Shown piece after piece: positions 24,750 to 43,849 of a DNA stretch of 64,000 nt. Source of the stretch: Actinomycetes bacterium (GTDB lineage: Bacteria; Actinomycetota; Thermoleophilia; RBG-16-64-13); assembly GCA_024637035.1 (NCBI GenBank), contig JAGXFW010000026.1:181600-245599 (forward strand), given 5' to 3'. A program made the position numbers and the translations under genes. The notes beneath the pieces were generated by a model. That model had not been told where the DNA came from, made no database searches, and saw nothing but the letters and a program-made list of their open reading frames with translations. Positions within the stretch are counted from its first letter, which is position 1. The number at the start of each line of letters is the position of its first letter.

Positions 24750-24750
24750 G

Positions 24751-27654: not shown

Positions 27655-28452
27655 GTGACTGCTGAGATGCCAGCGTACGATTCGAGTAGCCCGACGAAAC
27701 GGGCGACGCTCACCACCGTGATCGCTCTATGGCTTCTCTGGGCCCTGTTGCTGTTCGGCGGTTTCGCGCTCGGCTCCGCGGCGGACGATCCCACCCACCG
27801 CATGCCCACTTGGACCCGCATGGCGTCGTCGCTGGCTTTGGTCGCCGCAGGGTGGGCGTGGTTCGCGCTATCGCGTTCGGGGGGCGGTCGGGGCGATCAG
27901 GGCAGCCCGCGCTTCCCACTGTTCTTGGCGCTCGGCATGACCGCCGGCCTCGCAGGAGACCTCATCCTGGCCGGGCTTCTCCCTGGAGGGGAGAACGTGC
28001 TCGCCGGGATCGCGGCCTTCGGCATCGGGCACGTGCTGTACATCGCCGCGATCCTCCACTGGGCGGGAGCCCACGGTCTCAACCGAGCCGGCCCGCGCTG
28101 GGCCTCGTTCGCGGCGTGGTGGGTGATCGGCGCGCTGGCCTGGTACCTGGTCGTATTCAGAGGGCAGGAGGCAACCGTGCTCCACTGGGCGGCGCTCCCC
28201 TACGCGCTTCTGCTGGCCGGCACCTGCGGCGCCGCCACCGGGGTGGCGGCGCAGACCCGCACCTTCGTACCGATGGCTGTGGGCGCAGCCCTGTTCCTGG
28301 CCAGCGACCTCATCCTGGCCGCGCAGCTCTTCAACGACCTCGACTTCGCACTGATCGGCGACGTGATCTGGCTCACGTATGGGCCGGGCCAGATGCTGAT
28401 CGTGTACACGAACGCGGTAACGCGAGAACCACGCCGCGGGGCCATCACCTGA
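27655..28452 (+). CDS. YhhN/lysoplasmalogenase-family membrane protein
   Basis: Eight hydrophobic segments with conserved GD...LA and FxxGHxxY-like motifs (GIGHVLYIAA) typical of the YhhN family. Confidence 0.5.
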   Translation: MTAEMPAYDSSSPTKRATLTTVIALWLLWALLLFGGFALGSAADDPTHRMPTWTRMASSLALVAAGWAWFALSRSGGGRGDQGSPRFPLFLALGMTAGLAGDLILAGLLPGGENVLAGIAAFGIGHVLYIAAILHWAGAHGLNRAGPRWASFAAWWVIGALAWYLVVFRGQEATVLHWAALPYALLLAGTCGAATGVAAQTRTFVPMAVGAALFLASDLILAAQLFNDLDFALIGDVIWLTYGPGQMLIVYTNAVTREPRRGAIT

Positions 28453-29443
28453 ACCGAGGCAGCACCTCATCGCCCAGTAGCTCGATAGCTCGGCGCGGGT
28501 CGGGGCCGAGCGGCCCGCCGAGCGACACGTGGGTCACGCCAGCCTCGAGCAGGCCTTCGATCTGCTCGACGACCTCACCGGACGTGCCCACCAGAGCCAG
28601 CCCGAGCATGCGGTCGGTGACTCGGGAAGCCGCGCCCCGATAGTCGCCGGCGACGATACACTCCCTGATCGGCGCCACGTCGGCAGGAGTCACACCGATC
28701 GTGTCCAGCGCCTCTTGCTCCAGGTAGGGGACGAAGTAAGCCACGATCTCCCGGATGGAATCGCGGGCGGCGTCCCCACTCTCGGAGATCGATACCCAGG
28801 CGCAGCCGGCGATCTCGAAGTCGGCCGGGTCGCGCCCGGCGCGACGGAGACCGTCGAAGATAGGCGCCAGCATCAGCGAAGCAGAGGCGGGCGGGGTCAC
28901 CATGGGAAGGCTGCCGTCGCACACCTCTCCGGTCATGCGAAGAAACTCAGAACCCCAACCCCCACCGTAGATCGGCAGGTCGCGGCGGCGTGGCTCGAAG
29001 CGTAGGTAGGCCTGCTCGGTCCAGGGGAAGGCATCGCCCCCGGCGACCACGCCGCCCTTTAGGAGGGCTCGCACCTTCTCCACCGCCTCCCGGGTACGGG
29101 CGATCATGTCTTCCGCGGGGATGCCCAGCCACCCGATCATCTCGTCGGTGTGCGGCCCGAGACCCAGGATGGCCCGCCCTCCGGAGAGCTCGTCGAGTGT
29201 GGCGAAGTATGACGCTATCTCCGAAGGTTCGGTGGTGTAGGGATTGGTGCCCACCGTCGCGACCTTGATCGTCGACGTGGCCGCCGCCACCGCCGAGCAG
29301 AAAGCCCAGCTGTTCTTGCGAAAGGTGTCATGGGGGAACCAGCAGGCGTCGAAGCCCTTTGCCTCAGCGAGTACGGCCCATTCGACCAGAGTGCGCGCCG
29401 GCGCCAAATGGTCCAGGAAGCGGATGCCGAAGGTGGAGCTCAT
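28445..29443 (-). CDS. LLM-class (luciferase-like) flavin/F420-dependent oxidoreductase
   Basis: TIM-barrel LLM motifs (FDACWFPHD...; GTNPYTTEP; GRAILGLGPH). It is the last gene of the long minus-strand cluster; the 4-nt overlap at 29440-29443 is with the upstream gene. Confidence 0.75.
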   Translation of the reverse strand: MSSTFGIRFLDHLAPARTLVEWAVLAEAKGFDACWFPHDTFRKNSWAFCSAVAAATSTIKVATVGTNPYTTEPSEIASYFATLDELSGGRAILGLGPHTDEMIGWLGIPAEDMIARTREAVEKVRALLKGGVVAGGDAFPWTEQAYLRFEPRRRDLPIYGGGWGSEFLRMTGEVCDGSLPMVTPPASASLMLAPIFDGLRRAGRDPADFEIAGCAWVSISESGDAARDSIREIVAYFVPYLEQEALDTIGVTPADVAPIRECIVAGDYRGAASRVTDRMLGLALVGTSGEVVEQIEGLLEAGVTHVSLGGPLGPDPRRAIELLGDEVLPRFR

Positions 29444-30507
29444 CGCCTTCGAGTCGGCGATTCTCCCCGCGGCTTGGGCCGGTTGCCTTCAGGCACAGCC
29501 AGCGCTGCCACCTCGGTCATGTGTATGCTGCCACCCGAAACCACACACACCACCTTGCCGTAGCCGGCGCCGCCGGCAAGCGCGCAGGCCACCGGGCACG
29601 CGCCGGCGCCTTCCGCGATCACATGATTGCGCTCCGCCATTAGCAAGAGCGCCGCCGCAACCGCGGATACCTCGGCCACCAGGCTCCCCGCGATCACGGG
29701 TCGTGCTCGTTCGAACATCTGGGGGAAGACCGTGGGGCTCCCGATCCCATCGACGAACGAAGATGTGTAGTCGATCTCGACGGGCTTCCCCGCATCGAGT
29801 GCCGCGGCGAGGGGGGCGGCTCCCGCCACCTCGGCCGCGTAGACCTTGATCTCGGGGCGCAGAGCGTGGGCGGCGGCGGCCACGCCGCAGGTGAGGCCGC
29901 CGCCGCCCCAGGGGGTGATGATGGCATCGGCGTCGGGTAGGTCTTCCAGTATCTCGAGTGCGATGGTGCCGTTGCCCGCCATGACCCAGGGGTCGTCGAA
30001 GGCGTGGATGAAGGTGCCTTCCACCCCGGGATAGGCGTGCTCCTCGAAGGCGCGCCACCACTCCTCGAACGGCACCCGGATCACACGGCCGCCCATACGC
30101 TCAACGGCGTCGGTCTTCACTTTGGGGGCCGATTCGGGGGCGACGACCGTGCAGGGGATGCCACGCTCACGTGCCAGCCAGGCGACTCCCTGGGCCATGT
30201 TGCCCGCGGAGGCGGTGACCACGCCGCGGGCGAGTGCCTCGGGCGGTGTCGCGGCCATGACGGCGGCGGCTCCGCGGATCTTGAACGAACCGATGGGCTG
30301 CAGGTTCTCGAGCTTGAGGTAGATCTCGGGGCCGTCGCCGGCCGGTCTGGTGGCGTCCAGGCGCACCAGCGGCGTGCGGATGGCCGACGCGCCGCCGGGC
30401 GGGCCGATGATGGCCAGGCGGGCGGTCTCGATCTCGGCGAGGGTAGGCATGACGGTCGCCGGACCGATCGCCGGGCCGAGGCCACCTGGAGCGGCCGCCC
30501 GACTCAT
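29440..30507 (-). CDS. PLP-dependent threonine/serine dehydratase-family enzyme (fold type II)
   Basis: PLP lysine in SFKIRGAA, plus TASAGNMAQGVA and the glycine-rich GGGGL loop; no C-terminal ACT domain. Confidence 0.75.
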   Translation of the reverse strand: MSRAAAPGGLGPAIGPATVMPTLAEIETARLAIIGPPGGASAIRTPLVRLDATRPAGDGPEIYLKLENLQPIGSFKIRGAAAVMAATPPEALARGVVTASAGNMAQGVAWLARERGIPCTVVAPESAPKVKTDAVERMGGRVIRVPFEEWWRAFEEHAYPGVEGTFIHAFDDPWVMAGNGTIALEILEDLPDADAIITPWGGGGLTCGVAAAAHALRPEIKVYAAEVAGAAPLAAALDAGKPVEIDYTSSFVDGIGSPTVFPQMFERARPVIAGSLVAEVSAVAAALLLMAERNHVIAEGAGACPVACALAGGAGYGKVVCVVSGGSIHMTEVAALAVPEGNRPKPRGESPTRRR

Positions 30508-31484
30508 CGCTTCACCAGCGTGCCGACGCCCCGATCACGCGCCAAGGCATAGACGTGTGCGGCCGCGGCCACGTCCTCCACCGCGATGCCCAAGGACTTG
30601 AACAGGGTGATCTGGTCAGACGAGGTCCTTCCCGGCCGCAGACCGGCCACCACCTCACCGATGGTCCCCCGGACATGCTCCGGCCCTATCGCCCCGGAGG
30701 CCACGGCCGAGCGGTACTCGGCCGACTCGTTCTCGGCGGCGGTGCGATCGTCGAGGAAGAGCGCGGAACGGGCCATGGCATCGTCGTCGACCTCGCAGGC
30801 GCCGGGCCCTCCGATCACGTTCACATGGGCGCCGGGTGCAAGCCAAGCGCCCTCGACGACCGGGGAGGTAGCCGTGGTCGCCACCACCACGAGATCGGCG
30901 TGCCGCACCGCCTGCTCCACACTGTCGACCGCGGTGATGGGAAAGGAGAAACGCGGACCATGCTCCTCGGCGAAGCGGCGGGCGGTCTCGCCGGTGCGCG
31001 AGGCCACACGCACGCTGCGCAGGTCGCGCACGGCGGCCATCGCATCCAGATGGTAGGCGGCCTGCACGCCCGCACCCACCAGGGCCAGGTCACCGGCGTC
31101 CTCACGCGCCAGCAGCCGGGTGGCCAGGGCCGAGACGGCCGCCGTACGGATGCCGGTGAGAGCCGATGCGTTGACCAGGGCCAGATTCTCGCCCGTCTCG
31201 GGGCTCATGAGCAAGACAGCGCCCTGGTGCGAGTCGATACCGAGTTCCCGGTTTCCTGGGAACACGCTGATCACCTTGATCCCGTAGGCGGGAGCGCGGC
31301 CGCCCAGAAAAGCGGGCATGAGACCCATGAGGCCGGCGGCCTTCTCCGGAGCCACCACCGACCGGAGCGGCATGTGGCAGTCGCCGCGGGCCAGGGCGAT
31401 GAAGGCCTCCTCCATCACGGGGATGCAGTCCTCGATCGAGAGCAATCCCTCAACATCTGCGTCGCCGAGCACGAGCAACTCCAC
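30504..31484 (-). CDS. Ornithine cyclodeaminase / mu-crystallin family protein
   Basis: N-terminal dimerisation region, Rossmann GAGVQAAYHLDAMAAV; family contains OCD, pyrroline-2-carboxylate reductases and SbnB-like enzymes. Confidence 0.8.
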   Translation of the reverse strand: MELLVLGDADVEGLLSIEDCIPVMEEAFIALARGDCHMPLRSVVAPEKAAGLMGLMPAFLGGRAPAYGIKVISVFPGNRELGIDSHQGAVLLMSPETGENLALVNASALTGIRTAAVSALATRLLAREDAGDLALVGAGVQAAYHLDAMAAVRDLRSVRVASRTGETARRFAEEHGPRFSFPITAVDSVEQAVRHADLVVVATTATSPVVEGAWLAPGAHVNVIGGPGACEVDDDAMARSALFLDDRTAAENESAEYRSAVASGAIGPEHVRGTIGEVVAGLRPGRTSSDQITLFKSLGIAVEDVAAAAHVYALARDRGVGTLVKR

Positions 31485-31496
31485 GGGAGCCTCCTT

Positions 31497-32489
31497 TCAG
31501 CGCACCTCAGAGGGGCCGAAGTATCCGCCGATCCGGCGCCATTCGTCGTCGGTCAGATCGAGTTCGAGCGCACGCAGGGCCGGCTCGAGCTGATCCGGGC
31601 GCCGCGGACCCACGATCGGCGCGGTGACACGCGGGTGTCGCACGACCCAAGCCAACGTCAGCGTCGCCATATCGACGCCCCGCTCCGCCGCGTGGGCGCG
31701 GAGCGCGTCGAGGGCATCGTGCACCCGCTCATTCAGATAGCCTCCGTAAGGCTCGGGGCGCAGGGTCATTCGCGAGCCCTCGGGGAACGGCTCGCCCCGG
31801 CCGTACTTGCCGGTGAGCCATCCTCCGGCCAGGGGACTGAACGGCGTGTAGCCCAATCCTTGGTCGGCCAGGAGGGGGAACAGCTCGGCCTCGTCGTTCC
31901 GCTCGAGCAGGCTGAACGAGTTCTGCACCCACTCGAAGCGAGCCCAGCCGTGCTTGTCGCTGAGCCAGAGCGCTTTCGCGGTGAGCCAGGCGGGCATGTT
32001 GGAAGCCCCGATGTAGCGCACTTTGCCCTGTCGCACCAGGTCGTCCAGCGCCCAGAGGGTCTCATCCAACGGCGTCGTGGGGTCGGGTTCGTGGATCAGA
32101 TAGAGATCGAAGTGTTCGGCGCCCAGGCGCCGCAGGCTGGCCTCCACCTGCCGCATGATGTGCCGCCGGGAGAGCCCCCAGTCGTTGGGACCTTCGCCCA
32201 CCGGATTGAACACCTTGGAGCTCAGGAGCAGCTGATCGCGTGCAGCCGGGCCCTTCCGCGCGAGCCAGCGACCGATCATCTCCTCGCTGCGCCCACCGCC
32301 GTAGGCGTCGGCCGTATCGAACACGTTGACACCGGCCTCGAAGGCGGCGTCCATGAGCGCGCCCGCCTGCTCCTCAGTCTCACCCTGTCCGAAGAAGGCC
32401 GGGGAACTGCCGATGCCTCCGAAGTTGCCACAGCCCAGTATCACCGAGGAGACCTTGACCCCCGTGCGTCCCAATCTCACGTACCGCAT
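31497..32489 (-). CDS. Aldo/keto reductase
   Basis: MRYVRLGRTGVKVSSVILGCGNFGG...DTADAYGGGRSEE; start set at the internal M (32489); the ORF-track N-terminal extension is Arg-rich junk. Confidence 0.8.
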   Translation of the reverse strand: MRYVRLGRTGVKVSSVILGCGNFGGIGSSPAFFGQGETEEQAGALMDAAFEAGVNVFDTADAYGGGRSEEMIGRWLARKGPAARDQLLLSSKVFNPVGEGPNDWGLSRRHIMRQVEASLRRLGAEHFDLYLIHEPDPTTPLDETLWALDDLVRQGKVRYIGASNMPAWLTAKALWLSDKHGWARFEWVQNSFSLLERNDEAELFPLLADQGLGYTPFSPLAGGWLTGKYGRGEPFPEGSRMTLRPEPYGGYLNERVHDALDALRAHAAERGVDMATLTLAWVVRHPRVTAPIVGPRRPDQLEPALRALELDLTDDEWRRIGGYFGPSEVR

Positions 32490-32496
32490 GTCCACT

Positions 32497-33300
32497 CTAC
32501 GTTCGCCCCGCTTTCTCGGCGGACGTCGGCGGACACGGCTTGAACGCGACGAGTCCTGTGCCCAACAGCTCCTCCTTGGAGCGCCGAACATGATCCAGCG
32601 CCGTCCGATTGGCTGCCTCCGGGTCGCGCGCCTCGATGGCGTCGAAGATAGCCTGGTGATCCACCACCACGCGCGCGACGCGCGAGGGGAGCGCCATGAT
32701 GGCTCGACGCGCGTCGAGCACGTGATCTTCAAGGTCGTTCAGGATCTGGGCGATGATCTGGTTGCCACCGACCTCGCGAATGATCCTGTGGAACTCGGAA
32801 TCCGCTGCCACCAGGGCTTCGTGATCCTGAGCCTCCACTGCCGCCTTCATCGCGGTGAGAGCGGACTCGAGCCGGCCCACGCCCCGGTCGGTGACGTGTG
32901 TCGCCGCAAGTTCGGCCACCTTCACCTCCAGCGCCTCATGCACTTCGAGCACCCGCACCACTTCCTGACGATGACCGAGGAGCCAGTGGAACCAATCGTC
33001 GGAGAGGGTGGTCACCGGCCGCTCGGCGACGTATGTGCCGCGCCCGGGTGCTACGCGCAGCACTCCCATGGTCTCCAAGGTGCGGATGGCTTCGCGCAGC
33101 GACGTGCGACTGACCGACAGCAACTCCATCAACTCGCGTTCGGGCGGCAATCTGACCCCCGGGGCCAGACTGCCATCGGAAACGAGTTTCTGGATCTGTT
33201 CCATGGCCCCGTCCGAGAGCCGGCGAGGCTTGACCGGCTTGAAGATCTTGTTCACAAGCACTGCTCCCGATCGGCGGCTTCTAGACCAGCGCTGCGTCAA
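32497..33300 (-). CDS. GntR-family transcriptional regulator (FadR/FCD subfamily)
   Basis: Winged HTH LPPERELMELLSVSRTSLREAIRTLETMGVL followed by a helical FCD domain. Confidence 0.8.
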   Translation of the reverse strand: MTQRWSRSRRSGAVLVNKIFKPVKPRRLSDGAMEQIQKLVSDGSLAPGVRLPPERELMELLSVSRTSLREAIRTLETMGVLRVAPGRGTYVAERPVTTLSDDWFHWLLGHRQEVVRVLEVHEALEVKVAELAATHVTDRGVGRLESALTAMKAAVEAQDHEALVAADSEFHRIIREVGGNQIIAQILNDLEDHVLDARRAIMALPSRVARVVVDHQAIFDAIEARDPEAANRTALDHVRRSKEELLGTGLVAFKPCPPTSAEKAGRT

Positions 33301-35954
33301 CCCCCCAAGTAGGCTTCCCTGATCGCAGCGTCGCCCGCTAGATTGCAGGCTTCATCGGCAGCGACGATCCGGCCCGTTTGGAGCACATAACCTCTGTGCG
33401 CGATGTTCAGAGCCATACTGGCGTTCTGCTCCACCATGAAGATGGTGGTGCCCAAGTCCTGGTTGATCTTCTGGATGATCTGGAACACCTGCTGCACGAG
33501 GATGGGCGAGAGTCCCATAGAAGGCTCGTCCAGGCAGAGTAGACGCGGCTCTGTCATGAGCGCCCGCCCGATGGCCAGCATCTGCTGCTCGCCACCTGAT
33601 AGCGTAGCCGCCTTCTGGTCCCGGCGTTCGTGCAGGATGGGGAACTGCTCGAACGCCCGCTCGATGCCCCGCTTGATCATGGCCTGATCGTTGGTGGTGT
33701 AGCCGCCGATCTTCAGATTGTCCAGCACGGAGAGCAGCGGGAACACCCGCCTGCCCTCAGGCACCAACGCGACGCCACTCGAGACGATGCGCCCTGTGGG
33801 CCACGCTTCGATGCGCTGACCATCGAACTCGATGGTGCCGGCGCTGGCGCGGACGTTGCCCATGATGGTCTTGATCGTCGTGCTCTTCCCGGCTGCGTTG
33901 GCTCCCAATAGCGTGACTATCTCGCCCGAGTAGACGTCGAGGTCCAAACCCTTCAGCACACTGATGGGACCGTAGCCTGCCTCGACGCCTTTGAGGCTGA
34001 GCAGGGGCGAGCCTGAGACGAGCGAAGGCTTGGAGGCCACCTCGCAATCCTCCTGCTCGCCCAGATAGGCGGCGATGACTTTGGGATGTTCCTGCATCTC
34101 CTTCGGAGTGCCTTCCGCCAGCACCTGCCCCTTGTTCACCACCACGATGCGGTCGGAAACGTTCATGACCACCGGCATCTGGTGCTCGACCAGTATCACG
34201 GTGTAGCCGCTGTCGCGGAGCTCCCTGATCTGGCGCGTGATCTCGCCCACTTCCGAGGGATTCATCCCGGCTGCGGGCTCGTCGAGCAACAGCAGGTTGG
34301 GTCGGAGGGTCATGGCGCGCGCGATCTCTACCCGCCGGCGGTCGGCGTAGCTGAGGGCTGTCACATAGTCGTCCTTGCGTTCGGCGACCGCGCGGTTGAA
34401 AAACGTCAGATTGCGGATGCCTTCCGCCTCGGCGACACCCTCCTCCCGATTGACGGCGCGAGTTCGAGCAATCGACCGAAAGATGCCGGCCTTGAGCCAG
34501 GGGTGAGCCCCCGCCATGACGTTGTCCAGGACGGAGAGCTGCGGAAATATGCGGATGTTCTGAAAGGTCCGCGCCAGACCGCGCGAAGCGATGCGATCGG
34601 GCGAGTTGCCCGTCAGGTCGTCGTCGCGGTAGGTGACCGTGCCGCTGTCGGGCTTGTAGATGCCGGTGATCAGGTTGAAGAGCGTGGTCTTGCCCGCGCC
34701 GTTCGGCCCGATGACTCCGAGGATCTCGCCTTCGCGGACCTCGAGTGTCACGTCGTCGACGGCAACGACCCCACCGAAGCTCTTGCTGAGACCCTTCACC
34801 GAAAGGAGCACGTCGCCGATCTTTGGCGCGTGGCTCTGGTTCGTGTCCTCACGCGCCGGGGTGATCGAAGGCGCGCCCCCACCTTCCGATGTGGACGAGA
34901 TACCCGGCGGCGGCGCACCCATGGCCTCGTCGATCGAGGTCCTACTCTTCCGCGCCCTGGCGCGCAACAAGCCCTGGGGCAACAGGACGATGACCACGAG
35001 GAGGATCAGACTCAGGATGGCCATGCGCCACTGGACCAGACTGGGGAAGTATCGCAAGAACTCCCCGAGGAACGTGTAGACCACGGCGCCCACAACGACA
35101 CCCACTGGGTTGCCCGAACCGCCCAGGATGATGATCAGGTAGACCGATACGAGCTCGTCGAGGCTGAAGTTCTTGTCGAAGACGCCCGCCTGGAACGCGG
35201 CGAGCAGCGCACCGGCAAGACCGATGATCGCCGCGGTCGTCAGAAACGAGAACACCCGGTAGCGGGGCAGGTTCACGCCCATGCTCGAAGCCGTGATCTC
35301 GTCGTCGCGGATGCCGGCCCAAGCTCGGCCGGTGCGGGAGTACAGCAGGCGCACCGAGATGAAGAGGACCGCCGCTGCGAAGATCCAATAGAAGTAGTAG
35401 TACTGTATCGGGCTCTTGATGGTGAGCCCGAACAACGCCGGCCGGGCTACGCCGGAGATGCCGTCCGGCCCGTTGGTGAGACCGTCCAGATTGAGTATCA
35501 GGCGCTGCACGATGTAGAAGAAGCCCAGGGTCACGATGGCAAGGTAGTCTCCGCGCACCCGCAGACTGGGGATCCCGATGACGGCGCCGAAGATGACGGC
35601 GACAAGCACGCAGATGGGCAGCGAAGGCCAGAATCCCAGGTGGATGCCGAGTTGGGCCGAGTTCAGAACCGCATAGGTGTAGGCCCCGATAGCGTAGAAG
35701 GCGATGAACCCCATATCGAGCAGGCCCGTGATGCCCGCGAGGATGTTGAGGCCGTTGCCCAGGATGACGTAGATGGCCACGGTCACCCCGACCCGGGTCC
35801 AGTAACTATTCTGGACCAGGAGGGGGAAGACGACGACAGCGAGAGCGAAGATGGCAAAGCGGAACTGGATCGGGATCCGGGAGGTCACCCGGGTGACCGG
35901 AGCGAGGCCGTGGGCCAGGAAGCCGCCGGCGCGCGTCTTGAACGATTCGGCCAT
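33297..35954 (-). CDS. Fused branched-chain-amino-acid-type ABC transporter: permease (LivM-like) + ATPase (LivG-like) + ATPase (LivF-like)
   Basis: N-terminal 8-9 TM permease, then two complete nucleotide-binding domains (Walker [13 protein letters not shown] and [12 protein letters not shown]; signature LSGGEQQML; Walker [11 protein letters not shown] and LLCLDEP). Confidence 0.8.
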
Positions 35955-35964
35955 GACTGCTCCC

Positions 35965-36873
35965 TCAGACCTTCACTGGGATCTGCTTACCCAGCAGTCC
36001 GGCGGGTCGGAACAGGAGCAGGACGATGAGTAACCCGAATGCGATGACGTCTCTGTAGGCATACGAGATATACGTGGCCCCTAGAGTCTCGGCGCTGGCC
36101 AGGATCAGCGCGCCCAGCACTGCGCCCCGCAAGTTACCGATGCCGCCCAAGACTGCTGCCGTGAATGCCTTCATGCCGAGGCCGAAGCCCATGGCGAAGT
36201 CCACCTGAGTGTAGTACAGACCTGTCAGCACACCCCCGATGCCGGCCAACATGGCGCCAACCAGGAATGTGGCCGAGATGATGCGGTTGACCGAGATACC
36301 CATGTAGGAAGCGGCTTCGCGGTCCTGGGCAGTGGCCCGCATGGCCTTGCCCATCTTGCTGCGCCCCATGAAGATCTCGAGGCCGATGAGGGTGATGATC
36401 GTCACCACCACGACCACGACCCGGCTCGCCGAGACGGTCACGTCGCCGATGTGCAGGGCCCAGGAATCCGGAAGCAGCAGATCGGTGCGAACGGGGCGGG
36501 CGCGGAACTTGGTGAGCACCCCCACGACGTTCCGCAGAAGGATGGACATGGCAAGCGCGCTGATGAGCGGAGCCAGACGCGCCGCGTTGCGCAAGGGCCG
36601 ATAGGCGAAGAACTCGATGCTCACGGCGAGCGCGCCACATACGGCCATCGCAATAACCAGCATCATGGCGATGATGAGGATGGGGTTCGCCGTGAGCTGA
36701 TCGCCCTGCAGGAACTGTTGCTGGACGAGGTATCCCACGAAACCCCCGATCATGAAGACCTCGCCATGGGCGAAGTTCAGCATGGTCAGGATGCCGTACA
36801 CCATGGAATAACCCAGGGCGAACAGTGCGTACACAGAGCCGAGTGTAAGCGCATTGACGACTTGTTGAGTCAT
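35965..36873 (-). CDS. livH: Branched-chain amino acid ABC transporter permease (LivH-like)
   Basis: 302-aa polytopic protein with LivH-type motifs (FAHGEVFMIGGF...; GIGNLRGAVLGALIL). Confidence 0.85.
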   Translation of the reverse strand: MTQQVVNALTLGSVYALFALGYSMVYGILTMLNFAHGEVFMIGGFVGYLVQQQFLQGDQLTANPILIIAMMLVIAMAVCGALAVSIEFFAYRPLRNAARLAPLISALAMSILLRNVVGVLTKFRARPVRTDLLLPDSWALHIGDVTVSASRVVVVVVTIITLIGLEIFMGRSKMGKAMRATAQDREAASYMGISVNRIISATFLVGAMLAGIGGVLTGLYYTQVDFAMGFGLGMKAFTAAVLGGIGNLRGAVLGALILASAETLGATYISYAYRDVIAFGLLIVLLLFRPAGLLGKQIPVKV

Positions 36874-37020
36874 GTGTGAACTGTCCTCCCCCAGATCGAG
36901 ATGGTTGGTTCCGCCAGCTCGGCGGCCGCGACCTGCGTGGGAAGCACGCCGCGTTCCCCCGCCGATCCCAGCCGGGGCGGCGGCGCCGCCCCGGCTGGGA
37001 CTACTACAAGTTGACCCGCC

Positions 37021-38304
37021 TTACGGCAGGGTCACCATCTTCACCGGAACGAAATCGCTGCCCTTCACCTGAAGGACGGTGATCCCACCGCCCACCAAGT
37101 CACCCTCAGGGGTGAACGCGATGGGGAATCCGAGGATGCCGGTGTAGTTCGAAGCGCTGAGGGCAGCGTTGACGGCCGCGCGGTCGATCTTGCCGTCCAC
37201 GACGCCTACGGACTTGATGGCCTCGAGCAGCACGTTGGTCGCCTCATACGACTGGGCGGTGAACGCGCTCGTCACTTGGTACTTGGCGATGTACTTGTCG
37301 AGGAACGGCTTGGCCGAATCCAAGGTCTCGGGCAGAGGGCCGAGAACGGTGGAGTACATCCCTTCGGTCGCGCCGCCGGCTGCCGTCATGAGTTCGCCGT
37401 CGTGGGTGCCGTCGGCTCCCATCATCTGGACCTGGAAGCCCATGCTCTTCATCTGCTTCGCGATGGCCGCGGCCTGAGGCGGATTGGGAAGGGGGACGAA
37501 CAGGACGGTGGGATTCATCTCCTTGACCTGCGTCAACACGGTCGCGAAGTCTTTGTCGGAGCCCGCGATCTGGGCACGCTTGACTGTCACGCCGCCGGCC
37601 GTCAAAGCTTCCTCGGCTTGATCGGCCAGGCCCTTGGCGTAGGCCTCACCGTCATCGATGATGAACACGCTCTCGGCCTTGAGGTCGTCGATCATGAACT
37701 TGGCGATCGAGGGACCCTGCACGCCGTCGCTCGGGCAGATGCGGTGGAACGACGAGAAGCCGAGCGTGGAGAGATTGACGTTGGTGGCCGACTGGGTGAT
37801 CAGGGCCACGTTCGCGTCGCTGAGGATCGGCAGCGCCGCCTGGACCGCGCCGCTGGTCATCGGGCCTACGACTCCCACGACCGATTCGTCAGAGGCGAAC
37901 TTCTCGGCGATCGTCGCGGCTTTGGCCGGATCGGCACCGTCGTCGCCTACTTCGACCGTGAACGTCACGCCCGGCATCGCGCCGGAAGCATTGAAGTCAT
38001 CAACAGCCATTTGGACGGCCTGGAGTGCGTCTGTGCCGATCTTGGCAAGGTCGCCCGTGAACGGGCCTGCCCCACCGATTTTGAAAGTGTATTCCTCCGT
38101 CGGCGCCGCGGTCGTGTCCGTCGAAGCTGCTGTGGTGCCGGTCGCGTCTGCTGTGGTGGTGGTCGTGTCGCCGCAGGCCGTGAGCGCGAGCCCAACGACC
38201 ATCAGGAGCGCCAGTACTGCCACCAGGTTCTTTGATACTTTCACTGCGTGTACCCCCTCGTCCGTGAACACATCAGGTGTTAGGAATTGTCGATATTCAA
38301 CCAT
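37021..38304 (-). CDS. ABC transporter substrate-binding lipoprotein (LivJ/LivK-like, branched-chain amino acid type)
   Basis: Lipobox LTACG, Thr-rich linker, then type-I periplasmic binding fold (KIGGAGPFTGDLAKIG...); start may be the GTG near 38238. Confidence 0.8.
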   Translation of the reverse strand: MVEYRQFLTPDVFTDEGVHAVKVSKNLVAVLALLMVVGLALTACGDTTTTTADATGTTAASTDTTAAPTEEYTFKIGGAGPFTGDLAKIGTDALQAVQMAVDDFNASGAMPGVTFTVEVGDDGADPAKAATIAEKFASDESVVGVVGPMTSGAVQAALPILSDANVALITQSATNVNLSTLGFSSFHRICPSDGVQGPSIAKFMIDDLKAESVFIIDDGEAYAKGLADQAEEALTAGGVTVKRAQIAGSDKDFATVLTQVKEMNPTVLFVPLPNPPQAAAIAKQMKSMGFQVQMMGADGTHDGELMTAAGGATEGMYSTVLGPLPETLDSAKPFLDKYIAKYQVTSAFTAQSYEATNVLLEAIKSVGVVDGKIDRAAVNAALSASNYTGILGFPIAFTPEGDLVGGGITVLQVKGSDFVPVKMVTLP

Positions 38305-38402: not shown

Positions 38403-38789
38403 CTACCCGGCCAAGCGACAGACAGCGGAGATCTCCACCAGGGCGTCCTTGGGCAGACGAGCCACCTGCACGGTCTCCCGCGCCGGGGGTTCCCCGGGGA
38501 AGAAGCGGCCGTACACTTCGTTGAAGATCGGAAAATCGTTCATGTCGGCCAGGAAACAGGAGGTCTTGACCACGTGGGCCAAAGTACCTCCGGCCGCCTC
38601 GACCACCGCCGCCAGGTTGTGGAGCACGCGGTCGGTCTGCTCCATGATGCCACCCGCCACCAGTGAACCCGTCGCCGGATCGAGCGGTATCTGTCCGCTC
38701 ACGAACAGAAGACTGCCCGAGCGAACAGCCTGCGAGTACGGTCCGATCGCGGCCGGCGCACGATCCGTATGGATGATCTCTTTGCTCAA
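38403..38789 (-). CDS. ridA: RidA (YjgF/TdcF) reactive enamine/imine deaminase
   Basis: APAAIGPYSQAV...PARETVQVARLP; 128 aa; typical chorismate-mutase-like RidA motifs. Confidence 0.85.
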   Translation of the reverse strand: MSKEIIHTDRAPAAIGPYSQAVRSGSLLFVSGQIPLDPATGSLVAGGIMEQTDRVLHNLAAVVEAAGGTLAHVVKTSCFLADMNDFPIFNEVYGRFFPGEPPARETVQVARLPKDALVEISAVCRLAG

Positions 38790-40039
38790 GCTGACAGATC
38801 CTCCTCGAAGACGGCCTTCAAAGCATCCAGAGCCAGGTCCACGTCGTCAAGCGTGTTGTAGAAATGCGGAGCCAGGCGGATCACCGGGCCCCTCGCGGCC
38901 GCCAGGATCCCGCGCTTGAGCAGGAGGGCCTCCACGCGGTGAGATTCGCCCTCAGGGCACACGAAGGCGGTGCTCGGAGTCTTGCGCCCCGGGTCATCGA
39001 TGCCGTGGAGTCGGAAACCCCGGGCCCGACCACCTTCGATGAGGCGTCGAGTGAGGTGCTCGGTCCAGGCGGCGATCGCGTCCACGCCGATCTCGTTGAT
39101 CACGGCCATGCCGGCCCGAGAGATATAGGCGTTGATCACGGGGGGTGTTCCCGTGTCGAAGCGGGCAGCCGTGGGCGCCCAGTCCAGCCCCCGCACGTCG
39201 AACGCGAACGGGTTTGCTCGTCCGAACCAGCCGGTCACGGCCGGTTTCAGATGTTCAACCAGGCCGGGGCGCACGTAGAGGAAGGCGATGCCAGGCACAC
39301 CCAGCAAGAACTTCAAGTTGCCCGAGGCCAGGATGTCGATGTCCATAGCCTGCACATCGACCTTGGTGACGCCCAGACTCTGATAGGCGTCGACATACAG
39401 CAGGGCTCCTTTTTCATGAGCCTTGCGGGCGATCGCGGCGACATCCTGTACGTAGCCATTCTGGTAGTACGCATGACAGGCGGACACCAGGAGCGTCCGC
39501 TCGTCGATGACTCCGTCGTAGTCTTCCGTGTAGACGATGTCGTCGCGGACGGGCACCCAGTCGAGCTCGAGTCCGTATTTGGCGTGCGCCTGCCACACGT
39601 GAGCCACGGAGGGGAACTCCGCTTCGGTCGTGACCACCCTTCGCCGCTCACCGCTGAGGTCGAGCGCGCTCGCAAGGCTGGCGGTGGCCTCACTCACCGA
39701 GCTGGAGACGGCGATGTCGTCGGGCGAGGCGTTGATGAGCCGGGCGAACTCGACTTTGGCCTTGTAGGTCTCAGCCATCCACGCGTCCCAATCCATGCCG
39801 GCCTTGTTCCACGAGTCCAGATAAGCTTCGGCTGCCTCTCGCGTCACGTCGAGCTGGGGAGCCTGGGAACAGTTGTTCATCAGCACCAGGGACTTGAGAA
39901 GAGGGATGCGGCGACGCCAGGCGGCGATGTCGTACGCGGGCTGGGCGTTCGGAGAGCTTTCCACGACGTCCGTGCGATCGGCGACCATGGGGTCGGCGTC
40001 CACGCGCTCGGCGTGGGTGTGACCGGTGACCGCGCTCAC
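38786..40039 (-). CDS. Aminotransferase class V-fold PLP-dependent enzyme
   Basis: IPLLKSLVLMNNCSQAP N-terminal region and SGNLKFLLGVPGIAFL (SGHK-like PLP-Lys region); exact subfamily unclear. Confidence 0.6.
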   Translation of the reverse strand: MSAVTGHTHAERVDADPMVADRTDVVESSPNAQPAYDIAAWRRRIPLLKSLVLMNNCSQAPQLDVTREAAEAYLDSWNKAGMDWDAWMAETYKAKVEFARLINASPDDIAVSSSVSEATASLASALDLSGERRRVVTTEAEFPSVAHVWQAHAKYGLELDWVPVRDDIVYTEDYDGVIDERTLLVSACHAYYQNGYVQDVAAIARKAHEKGALLYVDAYQSLGVTKVDVQAMDIDILASGNLKFLLGVPGIAFLYVRPGLVEHLKPAVTGWFGRANPFAFDVRGLDWAPTAARFDTGTPPVINAYISRAGMAVINEIGVDAIAAWTEHLTRRLIEGGRARGFRLHGIDDPGRKTPSTAFVCPEGESHRVEALLLKRGILAAARGPVIRLAPHFYNTLDDVDLALDALKAVFEEDLSA

Positions 40040-40248
40040 CCGCTGATCCGCCCTATCCCCACGACGTGCCCCCCCTGACTGGATTCAATGATGAGATCTT
40101 CTCGCCGCCGAACCCACCCTGCGATTCTCTTCCGGCAGAGCAACGAACACCGCCGCTCGTGGTAGACAGATTGGACCGCAGCATACGACAGCGACGAAAC
40201 CCTGTCAACGCGCTCCTGTACGGGGTCCAGTGAGTTCCGACCGCCCGT

Positions 40249-41283
40249 CTACCCCAGAGCTGCCCGAGCCGCCCGCAGGGCGGCGTCAACTCCGGATGCT
40301 CCCACACCATGGTGCGTGACGAGGCGCACGCGAGTCGACCCCACTGCGCCCGCACGCACCCCAGCCGCCGCCAGGCCGGCCACGAACGAGGCCGCGTCCA
40401 GGCCATGCGCGACGACTTCCGCGAACACCATGTTCGTCTGCACGCACTCCAGATCCACATCCAGACCAGGAATGCCGGCCAACCCCTCGGCTAGGCGCCG
40501 TGCGTTCTCGTGATCCTCCGCAAGACGCTCCACCATGGTCTCGAGGGCCACGATGCCGGCCGCCGCCAGCACGCCCACCTGCCGCAGGCCTCCGCCCAGC
40601 ATCTTGCGGGCGCGACGGGCCTCGGCGATCCAATCGGCCGGCCCGGCCAGCATCGACCCCACCGGGGCGCAGAGACCCTTGGAGAGACAGAACATCACGG
40701 AATCCGCATGGGCCGCGATCTCAGCCGCGGGCACTCCCAGCGCCACGGAAGCGTTGAAGAGCCGGGCGCCGTCGAGGTGCACCGCCAGACCGCCGCGATG
40801 CGCCGTCGCGCAGAGGTCGGCCATCAGGTCGAGGGGAGCCACGATGCCACCCCCGGAATTGTGCGGGTTCTCCAGACACAGCAGGCGGCTGCGGGGAAAG
40901 TGCACGTCGTCGGGACGGATCGCGGTCTCCACCTGCTCCGGCCGCAGCAGACCCTTGACGCTCTCGAGTGGGCGGGCCTGGACACCGGAAAGGACGGCTA
41001 GGCCGCCCACCTCCGCGTCGTACACGTGGGAGGTGAGGTCGCAGATCACTTCGTCGCCGCGACGCGTGTGAACGAGCACGGCGATGCCGTTGCCCATGGT
41101 GCCGCTGGGCACGAAGAGGGCCGCTTCCTTGTCCACGCGCGCGGCGGCAAGATCCTCCAGACGGCGCACGGTGGGATCCTCCCCGTACACGTCGTCGCCG
41201 AGTTCGGCCGTAGCCATGGCCCGCAACATCTCTGGCGTGGGGAGAGTGACCGTGTCGCTGCGCAGGTCGACGACGGAGCTCAC
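40249..41283 (-). CDS. ltaE: Low-specificity L-threonine aldolase
   Basis: [20 protein letters not shown]...[11 protein letters not shown]...PSGTMGNG...; 4-nt overlap with the upstream AOR gene. Confidence 0.85.
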
Positions 41284-43160
41284 CCCTCGGCGCCTCTATC
41301 TACCCGCAGGCCCAGCTCGGCCAGCTTGGCCGGCGTGGGCAGGCCGGTGGCCACATCCCAGCCGCGCGCTTCGTAGTATTCGTCGAGCATCTGGTCGAGA
41401 TCGACCGTCGCCCCGGACGAGGGGGTGCCGGTCGGACCCAGGGGCTCCTCAAGGAAGCGGCGCGGCAGGGTGTCGTCCTTACGGGTGACTCCCTCGCGGG
41501 CGATGAACAGCCGCTCCAGGTTGACGATGCGCTCACCCGCCTGCCGCACCTCCTCGCCGGTCATGTCCCAGCCGGTCGAGGCGTTCAGGAGGTCGGCGGT
41601 CTCCTGCCAGTCGAGCACCTCCATGTTGTTGTAGGTGTTCTTGCAGACTCCGAGCGAGTCGCAAACGGCGGCCATCTCCTCGAAGTGCTTGACCACGCGG
41701 CCCTTGCCCTTGTGTTCCAAGCGGAAGGCCGACTCCGCGACTCCGTACCGGCGGATGCCCTCCTCGGCATCGCCGGAGAACTCGAACCAAGGCTCGGAGC
41801 GCAGGTGGTCGGCCCCCCTGCTGGAGACCGCGTTGCCGAGAGCGTAGGCCTTGACGGTTCGCGGGTCGGCCTGGAACACCTCGAGTCCCTTGGAGTGCAT
41901 GGCGATCTCCTCGGAGCCGCCGCCCACCCGCTCGGCCGCCGCGCGTACCCCGTCGGCCAGCACGTCACCGAACCCCTCCCGTCGCATGATCTTCTCGATC
42001 AGCGTCAATACCGCTTCCATGTTCCCCCAGGCGAGATCGAGACCGTCGGTATCGGCAGGCGTCAGGATGCCCCGCTCCTGGCACTCCATCGTCCAGGAGA
42101 TCACCTCGCTGAGGGCGATCGCGTCCATGCCGTAGCGATTGGCCAGGTCGACGCAGCGCAGGGCGAAGGCAAGGTCACCGTTGCCGATGCGCGAGGTGAA
42201 CCCGGCGAGGGGCTCGTACTCCGGCCCCTCGAGCTTGAGCCCGGGGAAGCGGGGATCGTCCACCACCAGGAAGCGGCTGCAGGGGATGGTGCACGAAAAG
42301 CACGCCTTGCTCTTCACCTTGAACCGCGCTTCGATCGTCTCGCCACTCACCTGGTCGGCGTATTCGAAGCGGCCCTCCTTGAAATGCCGGGTGACGATGC
42401 CACCGATGCCGTTCATCGCCTTCACCAGCTTGGTCGTGCCGAGGCGCACCCTGATCTCGTACTCCTCGTGAGAGTAGATACGCTCGTCGACCATGTCGAT
42501 GAGCCGTTGGAACCCTTGCATGTCGGCCACCGGCACCGTCCCGGTGCCCCGCACAGCCACGGCCTTCAAGTTCTTGGAGGCCATGAGCGACCCCATGCCC
42601 GTGCGGGCGGCGGCCCGCACCAGGTTGGTGAAGATCCCGGCGAAACGCACGCCGTTCTCCGCCGCGGGACCGATCACCGCGGTCTGCACGTCGCGATCGC
42701 CAAGCTCCGCCCGGATGGCCTCGGTGGCCTCGGTGACGTCCAGTCCCCAGAGGCCGGAGGCGTCGCGCAGTTCCACCCAATGATCCCAGATCACTAGATA
42801 GACCGGGCTTTCGGCACGGCCTTCCACAATGAGTTGATCCACCCCAGAGAACTTGAGCTCGGGGCCGAAGAACCCGCCGGCGTTGGAGTCGCCCAGGATG
42901 CCTGTTTGCGGCGACATGCCGCTCACGTTGAAACGGGAGCCGCCGGGGAAGAGCGACCCCGCGAGCGGTCCCACCCCAAAGATCAACTTGTTCTCAGGGG
43001 CCAGGCCGTCGGTGTGGGCCGGCACCTCGTCCCAGAGGCGCTTGACGTTGAGGCCTCGTCCGCCCAGGAAGGCGCGGGCTTCGGCCGGGTCGGTGGGCTG
43101 CCTGGTGATGCTCCCGCTCGTCAGATCCACGCGCAGGATGGAGCCGCCGTAGCCGTTCAC
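41280..43160 (-). CDS. Aldehyde:ferredoxin oxidoreductase (AOR family, tungsto-/molybdopterin-dependent)
   Basis: AOR N-terminal domain [13 protein letters not shown]...GGRGLNVK...[20 protein letters not shown] and the large C-terminal pterin/4Fe-4S domain. Start set at GTG 43160, preceded by GGAAAGGGGGA; the ORF-track 764-aa version has an Arg-rich false extension. Confidence 0.85.
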
Positions 43161-43849
43161 TCGGTCCCCCTTTCCTTCTGCGTGGGTCTCTCGCCGCGCG
43201 GCGCCCCTGCGGGCGGGCGGTTCGCCCGGAAGCGGGCGGGCGCTAGACCTGAGGCGCCCGTAGGTTCGGGGTGGGCGCCGGAAGCGGCATCGGCGCCCTG
43301 AGCACCGACGGGACCGCCGCCCGATTCGCCGCCGCCGGATGTGTCGTTTCGGGTATCGCCCGTGCGCCCACCGAGCTGCCGCAGGGCCAGAGTCTCGCGC
43401 CGGTCCCGAGCTTGTTCGTCGACACCGCCCCAGCGTATGGCCCCCGGAGCGCAGCGTTTCACGCAGGCGGGGTCGCCGTCGCAGAGATCGCAGATGAGAG
43501 GTAGGCCGGTGGTTGGATGCATGATCACCATGCCGAAGGGACACCCGTCGGCACAAGCGCCGCAGGCGATGCATTCCTCCTCGTTCAGCCGCACCACGCC
43601 CAGAGAGGCGTCGCGACTCAAAGCACCGGCTGGGCAGGCTTTCACGCAGCCCGGCCGCCGGCAGAGCCTGCAGACCGAAGGCACGTCGAGGCCCTCGGTC
43701 TCGATCTTGGTGACCTTGATGCGGGCTGCACCCGTGCCGAAGCCACCCTCGTGCGCGGCCACGCAGGCCAGCATGCAGGCTTTGCAGCCGCTACATATGT
43801 CGCTCCGCACCAGAATGCGTCCCGCGCGCCCCATGTGCTCCACCGTCAC
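43157..43849 (-). CDS. 4Fe-4S ferredoxin-type electron-transfer protein (AOR partner)
   Basis: Four Cys clusters (CSGCKACMLAC; CRLCRRPGCVKACP; CIACGACADGCP; CDLCDGDPACVKRCAP); GTGA overlap with the AOR start; Gly/Ser-rich C-terminal tail. Confidence 0.75.
   Translation of the reverse strand: MTVEHMGRAGRILVRSDICSGCKACMLACVAAHEGGFGTGAARIKVTKIETEGLDVPSVCRLCRRPGCVKACPAGALSRDASLGVVRLNEEECIACGACADGCPFGMVIMHPTTGLPLICDLCDGDPACVKRCAPGAIRWGGVDEQARDRRETLALRQLGGRTGDTRNDTSGGGESGGGPVGAQGADAASGAHPEPTGASGLAPARFRANRPPAGAPRGERPTQKERGTE

What the first reader, a model, noticed from the sequence alone, without database searches (positions are those of the whole stretch)
33297..35954. Triple fusion of LivM-type permease with both LivG- and LivF-type ATPases in one 885-aa polypeptide
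Branched-chain-type ABC importers normally encode LivH, LivM, LivG and LivF separately. Here one reading frame carries a polytopic permease followed by two complete nucleotide-binding domains (two Walker A, two signature and two Walker B motifs) with no internal stops. A separate livH permease and a lipoprotein binding protein flank it.
Basis: seen in the sequence. Interest (0 to 1): 0.5.

Follow-up and report, generated by a model that had tools for sequence, protein, structure and literature searches.

The report
Fused LivM-LivG-LivF ABC importer subunit
One gene really does encode a membrane permease plus both ATPase subunits of a Liv-type (branched-chain amino-acid family) nutrient importer, but the same fusion is found in many bacteria and is already in public databases, so it is a tidy but ordinary variation.

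Summary
Window 33297..35954 (-) is one uninterrupted 885-codon ORF. It encodes a LivM-type permease (aa ~29-330), a disordered ~50-aa linker, a LivG-type ATPase (382-634), a ~16-aa linker and a LivF-type ATPase (651-885).

It is not a sequencing artefact:
- 119 of the 120 best database homologues, down to 40% identity, have the same M-G-F order.
- All ten ATPase motifs are essentially invariant in 116 full-length homologues.
- Relatives at 81% and 64% identity, from independent NCBI, ENA and JGI assemblies, carry the intact fusion in the same gene neighbourhood.

It is not rare either. Among the top 150 clusters at 50% identity, 65 are M-G-F, 35 M-G, 37 G-F, and a few are four-domain H-M-F-G or H-M-G-F single chains. 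A rough tree suggests at least three independent triple fusions. NCBI already names close relatives [quoted passage not shown].

E. coli has the same livH-M-G-F gene order, so loss of two stop codons is enough to make the fusion. The protein most likely pairs 1:1 with the adjacent LivH and a lipoprotein binding protein as a type II-fold importer in an amino-acid catabolic operon. The substrate is unknown. Interest is low.

The parts
33297..35954 (-). Fused livM-livG-livF gene, 885 aa plus stop codon
   Evidence: Single ORF. Domains. A 100% identical protein is in public databases (P0001; cluster member MBU2603840.1).
34965..35870 (-). LivM-type transmembrane domain, aa ~29-330. Ten predicted TM helices, with a cytoplasmic coupling segment at aa 207-224.
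34812..34964 (-). Linker 1, aa ~331-381. Basic stretch followed by a Pro/Gly/Ser/Thr-rich disordered tether.
   Evidence: pLDDT below 50 at aa 351-377. The M-to-G gap ranges from 17 to 103 aa in homologues and is always in frame.
34053..34811 (-). LivG-type nucleotide-binding domain (NBD1), aa 382-634, including the BCA_ABC_TP_C tail
   Evidence: NCBIfam LivG 268.5 bits, the best model for this domain. Matches PDB 1g6h (MJ1267) at 8e-39. Motifs: Walker A 416-424, Q465, LSYAD 534-538, D558-E559, H591.
34005..34052 (-). Linker 2, aa ~635-650 ([16 protein letters not shown])
   Evidence: pLDDT below 50 at aa 633-637. The G-to-F gap ranges from 8 to 112 aa in homologues. The AGGAGG-N8-GTG motif here is not conserved in relatives.
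33300..34004 (-). LivF-type nucleotide-binding domain (NBD2), aa 651-885
   Evidence: NCBIfam LivF 273.2 bits, the best model for this domain. PDB 1ji0 at 3.6e-73 and Foldseek TM 0.93. Motifs: Walker A 684-692, E733, LSGGE 785-789, D809-E810, Q843.
35965..36873 (-). livH-type permease, 302 aa. Separate partner TMD, ending 10 nt before the fused gene's start.
   Evidence: Pfam BPD_transp_2 at 2e-46. NCBIfam LivH 251.6 bits, the best model. Adjacent in relatives.
37021..38304 (-). Substrate-binding protein (Peripla_BP_6) with lipobox LTAC (Cys44). The true start is probably an internal GTG near aa 21-23.
   Evidence: Pfam at 4.1e-52. Sequence. Conserved position in relatives.
32497..33300 (-). 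GntR/FCD-family transcription regulator, immediately downstream of the fused gene (the listed TTG start overlaps its stop)
   Evidence: Pfam GntR plus FCD. Same position in relatives.
28445..32732 (-). Co-directional downstream enzymes: aldo-keto reductase (31497-~32489), OCD/mu-crystallin family (30504-31484), Ser/Thr-dehydratase-like PLP enzyme (29440-30507) and F420 LLM-class oxidoreductase (28445-29443)
   Evidence: The same set occurs in relatives L082 and L084.
38403..43574 (-). Co-directional upstream enzymes: RidA (38403-38789), class-V aminotransferase (38786-40039), beta-eliminating lyase (40249-41283) and aldehyde:ferredoxin oxidoreductase (41280-43574)
   Evidence: The same families occur around the fusion in L084/L085.

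Best explanation
This is a genuine, evolutionarily conserved gene fusion. The ancestral, adjacent and co-oriented genes livM, livG and livF (the same order as in E. coli livHMGF) have lost the two intervening stop codons. One 885-aa polypeptide now carries one of the two transmembrane domains and both ATPase domains of a HAAT-family (LIV-type) binding-protein-dependent ABC importer.

It most likely assembles 1:1 with the separately encoded LivH permease. LivH and the LivM domain would form the heterodimeric type II-fold translocation pathway. The tethered LivG and LivF domains would form the intramolecular head-to-tail ATPase dimer. The lipid-anchored binding protein would deliver substrate from outside.

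The fusion fixes subunit stoichiometry and co-assembly. It need not change the transport mechanism. The operon context (GntR/FCD regulator, Ser/Thr-dehydratase-like enzyme, RidA, aminotransferase, beta-eliminating lyase, OCD-family reductase, aldehyde oxidoreductase) suggests uptake of an amino acid or amino-acid derivative for catabolism.

Shown here: the ORF, its domains, motif conservation, recurrence of the fusion, synteny and the predicted fold class. Inferred: complex stoichiometry, import direction, substrate class and the selective benefit of the fusion.
For: - The ORF is intact and all three domains are assigned.
- 119 of the 120 best homologues have the M-G-F order; linkers vary in length but are always in frame.
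- Walker A/B, Q/H-loop and signature positions are invariant or nearly so in 116 homologues down to ~40% identity.
- The fusion is intact, with the same neighbours and no separate livG or livF, in relatives from independent NCBI, ENA and JGI assemblies.
- No other Liv-type NBD or TMD is in the window, so LivH and the binding protein depend on this gene.
- E. coli has the gene order livH-livM-livG-livF with abutting or overlapping genes.
- Every intermediate fusion state occurs in reference genomes and in the exhaustive search.
- AF2 models all three domains confidently and leaves only the linkers disordered.
- The tandem NBD portion best matches the naturally fused NBD subunits of M. tuberculosis DppABCD and OppABCD importers.
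Against: - No raw reads were available, so this particular assembly's junctions were not verified directly.
- There are no expression, transport or ATPase data for any member, and I found no paper describing the fusion.
- Each domain scores below NCBIfam's equivalog cutoffs for E. coli LivM/G/F (224 vs 366, 268.5 vs 362, 273.2 vs 441), so branched-chain amino acids are not established as the substrate.
- Model coordinates could not be inspected, so the NBD-NBD and NBD-TMD packing is untested.
- The NBD1 signature motif is non-canonical (LSYAD), so one ATP site may not be catalytic.
Confidence: 0.9

Rival explanations
1. The fusion is an assembly or sequencing artefact. Indels or a miscalled base removed the stops between three separate genes (livM, livG, livF) in this contig.
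For: The canonical arrangement is three abutting genes in the same order, so a single error per junction could mimic a fusion. At least one near relative (P0032, 86% identity) is called as a 504-aa G-F protein with a garbled stretch after Walker A, which shows that some assemblies of this clade do carry frame errors.
Against: The same single-ORF architecture is found in more than 100 non-identical homologues from different sources, in 65 clusters at 50% identity, and in independent NCBI, ENA and JGI assemblies of relatives. The linkers are 16-50 aa of in-frame sequence, partly conserved among close relatives (EQE.CEVA.KPSLV), not a simple stop read-through. In P0032 it is the split form that looks error-derived.
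Confidence: 0.02
2. The fused gene is a decaying or non-functional remnant, or the polypeptide is made but processed or internally initiated into separate LivM, LivG and LivF proteins, so the fusion has no functional meaning.
For: An AGGAGG motif lies 8 nt upstream of an in-frame GTG in the G-F linker of the window. Both linkers are disordered and could be protease-accessible.
Against: The catalytic motifs in both NBDs and about 40 permease positions are invariant across the family, which argues against decay. The SD-GTG motif is absent from the 81% and 64% relatives, so it is not a conserved internal start. No other NBD genes are available to LivH and the binding protein in the window.
Confidence: 0.04
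3. It is a genuine fusion, but the system is not an amino-acid importer. It could be a urea/amide (Urt-type) transporter, an aromatic-acid importer, or an exporter, as TMD-NBD fusions usually are.
For: On the whole protein the UrtE model exceeds its cutoff (343.5 vs 285.8). Peripla_BP_6 binding proteins bind diverse ligands (my own knowledge). TMD/NBD fusions are conventionally read as exporters (for example PMC8144104). Every Liv equivalog cutoff is missed.
Against: The UrtE score was inflated by summing two NBDs. Per domain, the Urt models are below cutoff and below the Liv models (UrtE 211.6 vs 285.8, UrtD 191.1 vs 304.1, UrtC 85.4 vs 296.2). The binding protein scores 37 vs 492.75 for UrtA, and LivH scores 150 vs 250 for UrtB. 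A dedicated lipoprotein binding protein in the operon and a type II importer permease fold argue for import. The neighbouring genes are amino-acid-metabolising enzymes.
Confidence: 0.12

Closest known systems
E. coli LIV-I system LivJ/K-LivH-LivM-LivG-LivF (HAAT family, TCDB 3.A.1.4 from my own knowledge)
   Same: The same five functional parts in the same gene order: binding protein, H, M, G, F. Each domain's best NCBIfam model is the corresponding Liv subunit. LivF-specific features are shared: Glu at the Q-loop position (VPEGRR), Gln at the H-loop position (VEQNA) and the SGGEQQM signature.
   Different: M, G and F are one polypeptide here. All domains score below the equivalog cutoffs. The LivM part lacks the ~90-aa N-terminal extension of E. 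coli LivM (425 aa; the match starts at profile position 94). The LivG signature is LSYAD here and LAYGD in E. coli. The binding protein is a lipoprotein.
Database family annotated by NCBI as 'branched-chain amino acid ABC transporter ATP-binding protein/permease' (fused M-G and M-G-F proteins)
   Same: This is the family the window protein belongs to. Relatives at 69-90% identity carry exactly that name (P0003, P0020, MHB0980640.1). A 100% identical protein is deposited, and a member of its 90% cluster (MBU2603840.1) is named 'ATP-binding cassette domain-containing protein'.
   Different: Nothing structural. The name is an automatic annotation. I found no experimental or descriptive paper on the fused forms.
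M. tuberculosis DppABCD and OppABCD importers, with fused tandem-NBD subunits DppD and OppD
   Same: Two NBDs of a binding-protein-dependent importer are covalently joined in one chain. These are the best Foldseek matches to the NBD1-NBD2 portion (E 3e-28 to 2e-25, TMt 0.51-0.58).
   Different: Those are type I peptide importers whose permeases are separate proteins. Here a type II-fold permease is also fused, N-terminal to the tandem NBDs.
Type II ABC importer permeases (HmuU, HI1471/MolB, FhuB) and the related metal importer permease PsaC
   Different: Sequence identity is only 9-13%, and no PDB chain is detectable by sequence even at E<=10. Those systems have separate NBD subunits and mostly homodimeric TMDs (FhuB is a TMD-TMD fusion).

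Membership tests
ABC transporter ATPase (two NBDs) | Walker A, Q-loop, signature, Walker B plus catalytic Glu, and H-loop in each NBD | tested here: met
   NBD1 has [10 protein letters not shown]465, LSYAD (non-canonical), D558-E559 and H591. NBD2 has [10 protein letters not shown]733 (in place of Gln), LSGGE, D809-E810 and Q843 (in place of His). All are conserved in 116 homologues. The NBD2 deviations are shared with E. coli LivF.
HAAT / LIV-type ABC importer family | Two BPD_transp_2 permeases (LivH-type and LivM-type) | tested here: met
   Pfam PF02653 matches the fused protein (1.6e-41) and the adjacent 302-aa protein (2e-46). Best NCBIfam models are LivM and LivH.
HAAT / LIV-type ABC importer family | Two different NBDs, LivG-type (with BCA_ABC_TP_C tail) and LivF-type | tested here: met
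   Scored per domain, the best models are LivG (268.5 bits) and LivF (273.2 bits). PF12399 matches aa 610-635.
HAAT / LIV-type ABC importer family | Cognate Peripla_BP_6-type extracytoplasmic binding protein in the operon | tested here: met
   The protein at 37021..38304 matches PF13458 at 4.1e-52 and has the lipobox LTAC.
E. coli LivHMGF orthologue (high-affinity branched-chain amino-acid transporter, NCBIfam equivalogs) | Score at or above the curated equivalog cutoff for each subunit | tested here: not met
   LivM 224 vs 366, LivG 268.5 vs 362, LivF 273.2 vs 441. LivH 251.6 vs 379 and binding protein 151.5 vs 477. The apparent LivG pass (375.3) came from summing two NBDs.
E. coli LivHMGF orthologue | Transports Leu, Ile, Val or Phe | not testable with these tools
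   Needs ligand-binding or uptake assays. Gene context suggests an amino acid or derivative but not which one.
Urea ABC transporter UrtABCDE | Scores above the Urt equivalog cutoffs for all subunits | tested here: not met
   Per domain: UrtC 85.4 vs 296.2, UrtD 191.1 vs 304.1, UrtE 211.6 vs 285.8. UrtB 150.4 vs 250.3 and UrtA 37 vs 492.75.
Type II ABC importer fold (BtuCD/HmuUV-like) | Ten-helix permease fold superposable on BtuC/HmuU-type TMDs | tested here: met
Conserved M-G-F fused clade | A single ORF with M, then G, then F order in homologues from independent sources | tested here: met
   119 of the 120 top homologues, 65 of the top 150 clusters at 50% identity, and intact copies in NCBI, ENA and JGI contigs with conserved synteny.

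The most novel reading that the evidence does not exclude
In this fused clade, covalent tethering of LivG to LivF may have co-evolved with a fully degenerate second ATP site. The last glycine of the LivG signature motif is always replaced (Pro in 77 and Ala in 39 of 116 fused homologues, and Ala in 6 of 7 G-F fusions, against Gly in 55 of 59 stand-alone LivG). That motif faces the LivF Walker A site, which already lacks the canonical Q-loop Gln and H-loop His. The fused transporters would then run on a single catalytic site (LivG Walker A/B with the LivF LSGGE signature), with the LivF site acting as a structural or regulatory nucleotide site, as in asymmetric heterodimeric ABC exporters.
Probability: 0.2. 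Interest if true: 0.35.

Novelty: new member of a known kind. Interest (0 to 1): 0.15.

Why it matters
The practical significance is modest.

- **Annotation pipelines.** Tools that identify Liv subunits by KEGG orthologue plus a length window (as in PMC13552627) will discard or mis-assign these fused proteins. They would then under-count complete HAAT transporters in Actinomycetota, Bacillota and others.
- **Structural biology.** No HAAT-family permease is detectable in the PDB by sequence. A two-polypeptide version (LivH plus LivMGF), or the four-domain single-chain versions seen in passing, could be convenient targets for the first structure of this family, because stoichiometry is enforced.
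- **This window.** The fusion changes nothing fundamental about how ABC importers are thought to work.

Tried and rejected
1. **Sequencing-error fusion.** Rejected on comparative grounds. Raw reads could not be checked.
2. **P0032 as a natural split form.** This 504-aa G-F protein is 86% identical. Rejected: it has a scrambled 13-residue stretch after Walker A, typical of compensating frameshifts.
3. **Short hits as M-G forms.** P0022, P0041 and P0086 are N-terminally truncated M-G-F proteins.
4. **Internal translation start for LivF.** The AGGAGG-N8-GTG in linker 2 is not conserved in the 81% and 64% relatives, so I rejected it as a conserved feature.
5. **Urea transporter.** The whole-protein UrtE pass came from summing two NBDs. 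Per-domain scores fail.
6. **LivG equivalog pass.** Same problem; it fails per domain.
7. **Locating the window's own contig.** The look-up of encoding contigs had no record for P0001.
8. **Literature.** Four searches and four papers read for any description of Liv-subunit fusions found nothing relevant.
9. **Promoter and terminator scan of the operon.** Counts were at or below chance; one promoter-like site at 40208-40180 (-) lies upstream of the aminotransferase gene.
10. **Taking tblastn spans in reference genomes as fusions.** Rejected as a method, because split livMGF genes abut. Each locus was re-tested for a single ORF.
11. **Specific pathway assignment.** Ectoine (EutBC), beta-hydroxyaspartate (BhcBD), SbnAB and Pyr2C reductase models all score far below cutoff.
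Full report

Yes. The ORF listing returns a single ORF at 33297..35954 on the minus strand: 885 aa, ATG start, no internal stop. The DNA shows a GGGAG motif 6 nt upstream of the ATG, which lies 10 nt after the stop of the preceding permease gene. Codon-position GC (0.62/0.44/0.85) matches that of the other real genes in this 64-70% GC window. That check matters because long spurious ORFs are common at this GC content.

Pfam finds BPD_transp_2 at aa 57-321, two ABC_tran stretches, and the LivG-specific C-terminal motif BCA_ABC_TP_C at 610-635. NCBIfam's best models are LivM (from aa 34), LivG (382-634) and LivF (651-885). The whole-protein scores sum two NBDs, so I rescored each domain alone. 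The best models were still LivM (224 bits), LivG (268.5) and LivF (273.2), all below the equivalog cutoffs of 366, 362 and 441. The domains are therefore LivM/G/F-type, but orthology to the E. coli LIV-I system is not shown.

Two details of the finding need adjusting:
- The livH-type permease (35965..36873) and the binding-protein gene (37021..38304) both lie upstream. The downstream neighbour is a GntR/FCD regulator.
- The first "signature" motif is non-canonical: LSYAD.

The binding protein carries a lipobox (LTAC, Cys44; sequence), so "lipoprotein" is reasonable.

**2. Artefact or real gene?**

The comparative evidence is nevertheless strong.
- A search of 5.8 billion proteins returned more than 100 hits covering 94-100% of the query, 825-1045 aa long, down to 40% identity. 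Their source names include Thermoleophilia, Actinomycetota, Clostridia/Bacillota and Chitinophagales.
- Probing those 120 sequences with the three domains separately gave M-G-F order in 119. The inter-domain gaps range from 17 to 103 aa (M-G) and 8 to 112 aa (G-F), always in frame.
- Three shorter hits are N-terminally truncated copies. The one G-F-only hit (P0032, 86% identity) has a scrambled stretch after Walker A that looks like an assembly frameshift.
- In an alignment of 116 full-length homologues, every Walker A, Walker B/catalytic Glu, Q-loop, H-loop and signature position is invariant or nearly so. About 40 permease positions are invariant too.
- Relatives at 81% identity (P0005; an NCBI MAG and an ENA assembly) and 64% identity (P0025; JGI and ENA, several contigs up to 338 kb) have the intact fused ORF. 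It sits in the same neighbourhood: class-V aminotransferase, RidA, binding protein, LivH, LivMGF, GntR/FCD, aldo-keto reductase, OCD family, PALP, luciferase-like oxidoreductase. Neither has a separate livG or livF.
- tblastn finds no other Liv-type domain in the window, so LivH and the binding protein have no alternative ATPases nearby.

**3. How unusual is it?**

Not very. E. coli K-12 has livK-livH-livM-livG-livF in the same order, with abutting or overlapping genes. Losing two stop codons is enough to generate this protein.

For the same reason, a tblastn span across M-G-F does not prove a fusion. I therefore re-tested 80 reference-genome loci for single ORFs. Most are split M|G|F, but every other state occurs:
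- M-G|F: for example L002, L005, L006, L013, L046, L055, L064, L077, L079.
- M|G-F: L058, L065, L068, L075.
- M-G-F: L007, L008, L039, L040, L052, all Proteobacteria.

An exhaustive phmmer search of 1.84 billion representatives at 50% identity, classified with four probes, gave these counts among the best 150:

| Architecture | Clusters |
|---|---|
| M-G-F | 65 |
| G-F | 37 |
| M-G | 35 |
| H-M-F-G | 5 |
| M-F-G | 5 (three are over 1,220 aa) |
| H-M-G-F | 1 |
| G-F-F | 1 |
| F-G | 1 |

That ranking favours fused proteins, so it is not a frequency estimate. It does show that the architecture is diverse and widespread.

A neighbour-joining tree of LivF domains, rough and without support values, puts the window protein in one large all-fused clade. 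The two proteobacterial M-G-F groups fall elsewhere, and one of them is next to an M-G|F group. That suggests at least three independent triple fusions.

NCBI names relatives at 69-90% identity [quoted passage not shown]. A 100% identical protein (P0001) is already deposited, and a member of its 90% cluster is MBU2603840.1. I found no paper describing or testing Liv-subunit fusions. General inventories still treat TMD/NBD fusions as exporters (PMC8144104). One study filters Liv proteins by length, which would drop fused forms (PMC13552627).

**4. How it most likely works**

AlphaFold2 with an 83-sequence alignment models all three domains confidently (mean pLDDT 81.7, pTM 0.67). Only aa 1-11, 351-377 and 633-637 fall below pLDDT 50, so the two linkers are flexible tethers.

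Foldseek matches the NBD1-NBD2 portion best to the naturally fused tandem-NBD subunits of M. tuberculosis DppABCD and OppABCD. It matches NBD2 to the LivF-like 1ji0 with a TM-score of 0.93.

The inferred assembly is LivH plus LivMGF at 1:1, served by the lipid-anchored binding protein. I could not inspect coordinates, so which NBD docks under which permease is unknown.

The neighbouring enzymes point to catabolism of an amino acid or derivative, perhaps a hydroxy-amino acid. They are a Ser/Thr-dehydratase-like PLP enzyme, RidA, a class-V aminotransferase, a beta-eliminating lyase, an OCD/ketimine-reductase family protein, an aldehyde:ferredoxin oxidoreductase, an aldo-keto reductase and an F420 LLM oxidoreductase. 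Only the Rid family model passes its cutoff.

**5. A side observation: ATP-site asymmetry**

NBD2 (LivF-type) has Glu at the Q-loop position and Gln at the H-loop position. E. coli LivF has the same, so this is family-wide.

The NBD1 signature differs. At its fourth position:
- stand-alone LivG has Gly in 55 of 59 cases, and E. coli has LAYGD;
- the window's fused clade never has Gly (Pro 77, Ala 39);
- G-F fusions have Ala in 6 of 7;
- the other M-G-F groups have Val in 2 and Gly in 3.

The NBD1 signature completes the ATP site built on the NBD2 Walker A. That site therefore looks more degenerate in tethered forms. The correlation is not absolute and rests on few independent lineages, so I report it as a lead only.

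**6. Verdict**

The feature is a common, already auto-annotated architectural variant of a well-known transporter family. I file it as a new member of a known kind, with low interest.

Noticed in passing
window 34343-34357 (-), aa 534-538 of the fused protein; homologues P0002-P0120; loci L001-L080: The LivG-domain signature motif lacks its last glycine. It is LSYAD here and Pro (77) or Ala (39) in 116 fused homologues, but Gly in 55 of 59 stand-alone LivG. G-F fusions mostly have Ala, and the other M-G-F clades have Val or Gly. This suggests a more degenerate second ATP site where LivG and LivF are tethered. The comparison is confounded by phylogeny.
   Followed up: partly
proteins P0186, P0189, P0192, P0233, P0264 (H-M-F-G, 1229-1362 aa); P0227 (H-M-G-F, 1149 aa); probably P0252, P0229, P0250, P0255: Some homologues carry the whole HAAT translocator (both permeases and both ATPases) in one polypeptide, with two different NBD orders. 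M-F-G triple fusions (P0222, P0266) also exist. Their organisms of origin were not examined.
   Followed up: partly
window 28445-43574 (-); L082, L084/L085: A conserved co-directional cluster surrounds the transporter: aldehyde:ferredoxin oxidoreductase, beta-eliminating lyase, class-V aminotransferase, RidA, the transporter, GntR/FCD, aldo-keto reductase, OCD-family protein, Ser/Thr-dehydratase-like PLP enzyme and F420 LLM oxidoreductase. It is retained, with small rearrangements, in relatives at 64-81% identity. It looks like an uncharacterised amino-acid (possibly hydroxy-amino-acid) catabolic pathway. No enzyme except RidA reaches an equivalog cutoff.
   Followed up: partly
window 34020-34042 (-), G-F linker: An AGGAGG motif lies 8 nt upstream of an in-frame GTG (the Val of 'CEVAS'). 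It could act as an internal start for a free LivF-like protein. It is not conserved in relatives L082 and L084, so it is probably a by-product of Glu codons.
   Followed up: yes
L007 and L008, G-F junction: In the proteobacterial M-G-F fusions the LivG end (AYLGGG) is followed within a residue or two by an in-frame Met (…AYLGGGEMRARP / …AYLGGGMRKPAA). This may be a relic of the former livF start codon and is consistent with a separate, perhaps younger, fusion event.
   Followed up: no
PDB-wide (query: window aa 1-339): No solved structure is detectable by sequence for a LivM-type (BPD_transp_2) permease, even at E<=10. Only fold comparison links the model to type II importer permeases.
   Followed up: yes
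window 44087-46153 (+) and 46215-48203 (+): Two adjacent paralogous ~660-690-aa proteins combine NHL-repeat beta-propeller regions with three CWB2 cell-wall-binding domains. They are presumably surface-anchored proteins of a Gram-positive-type envelope.
   Followed up: no
window 21747-24749 (+) and 24395-26017 (+): A 1000-aa FAD-linked oxidase fused to 4Fe-4S and CCG domains (a D-lactate/glycolate-oxidase-like fusion) lies next to a LarA-type lactate racemase homologue. A LarA homologue also lies near the transporter cluster in relatives L082 and L083.
   Followed up: no
window 30555-32543 (+) and 34086-36029 (+): Long antisense ORFs (662 and 647 aa) overlap real minus-strand genes. They are typical spurious ORFs of high-GC DNA and a reminder that ORF length alone is weak evidence in this window.
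   Followed up: yes
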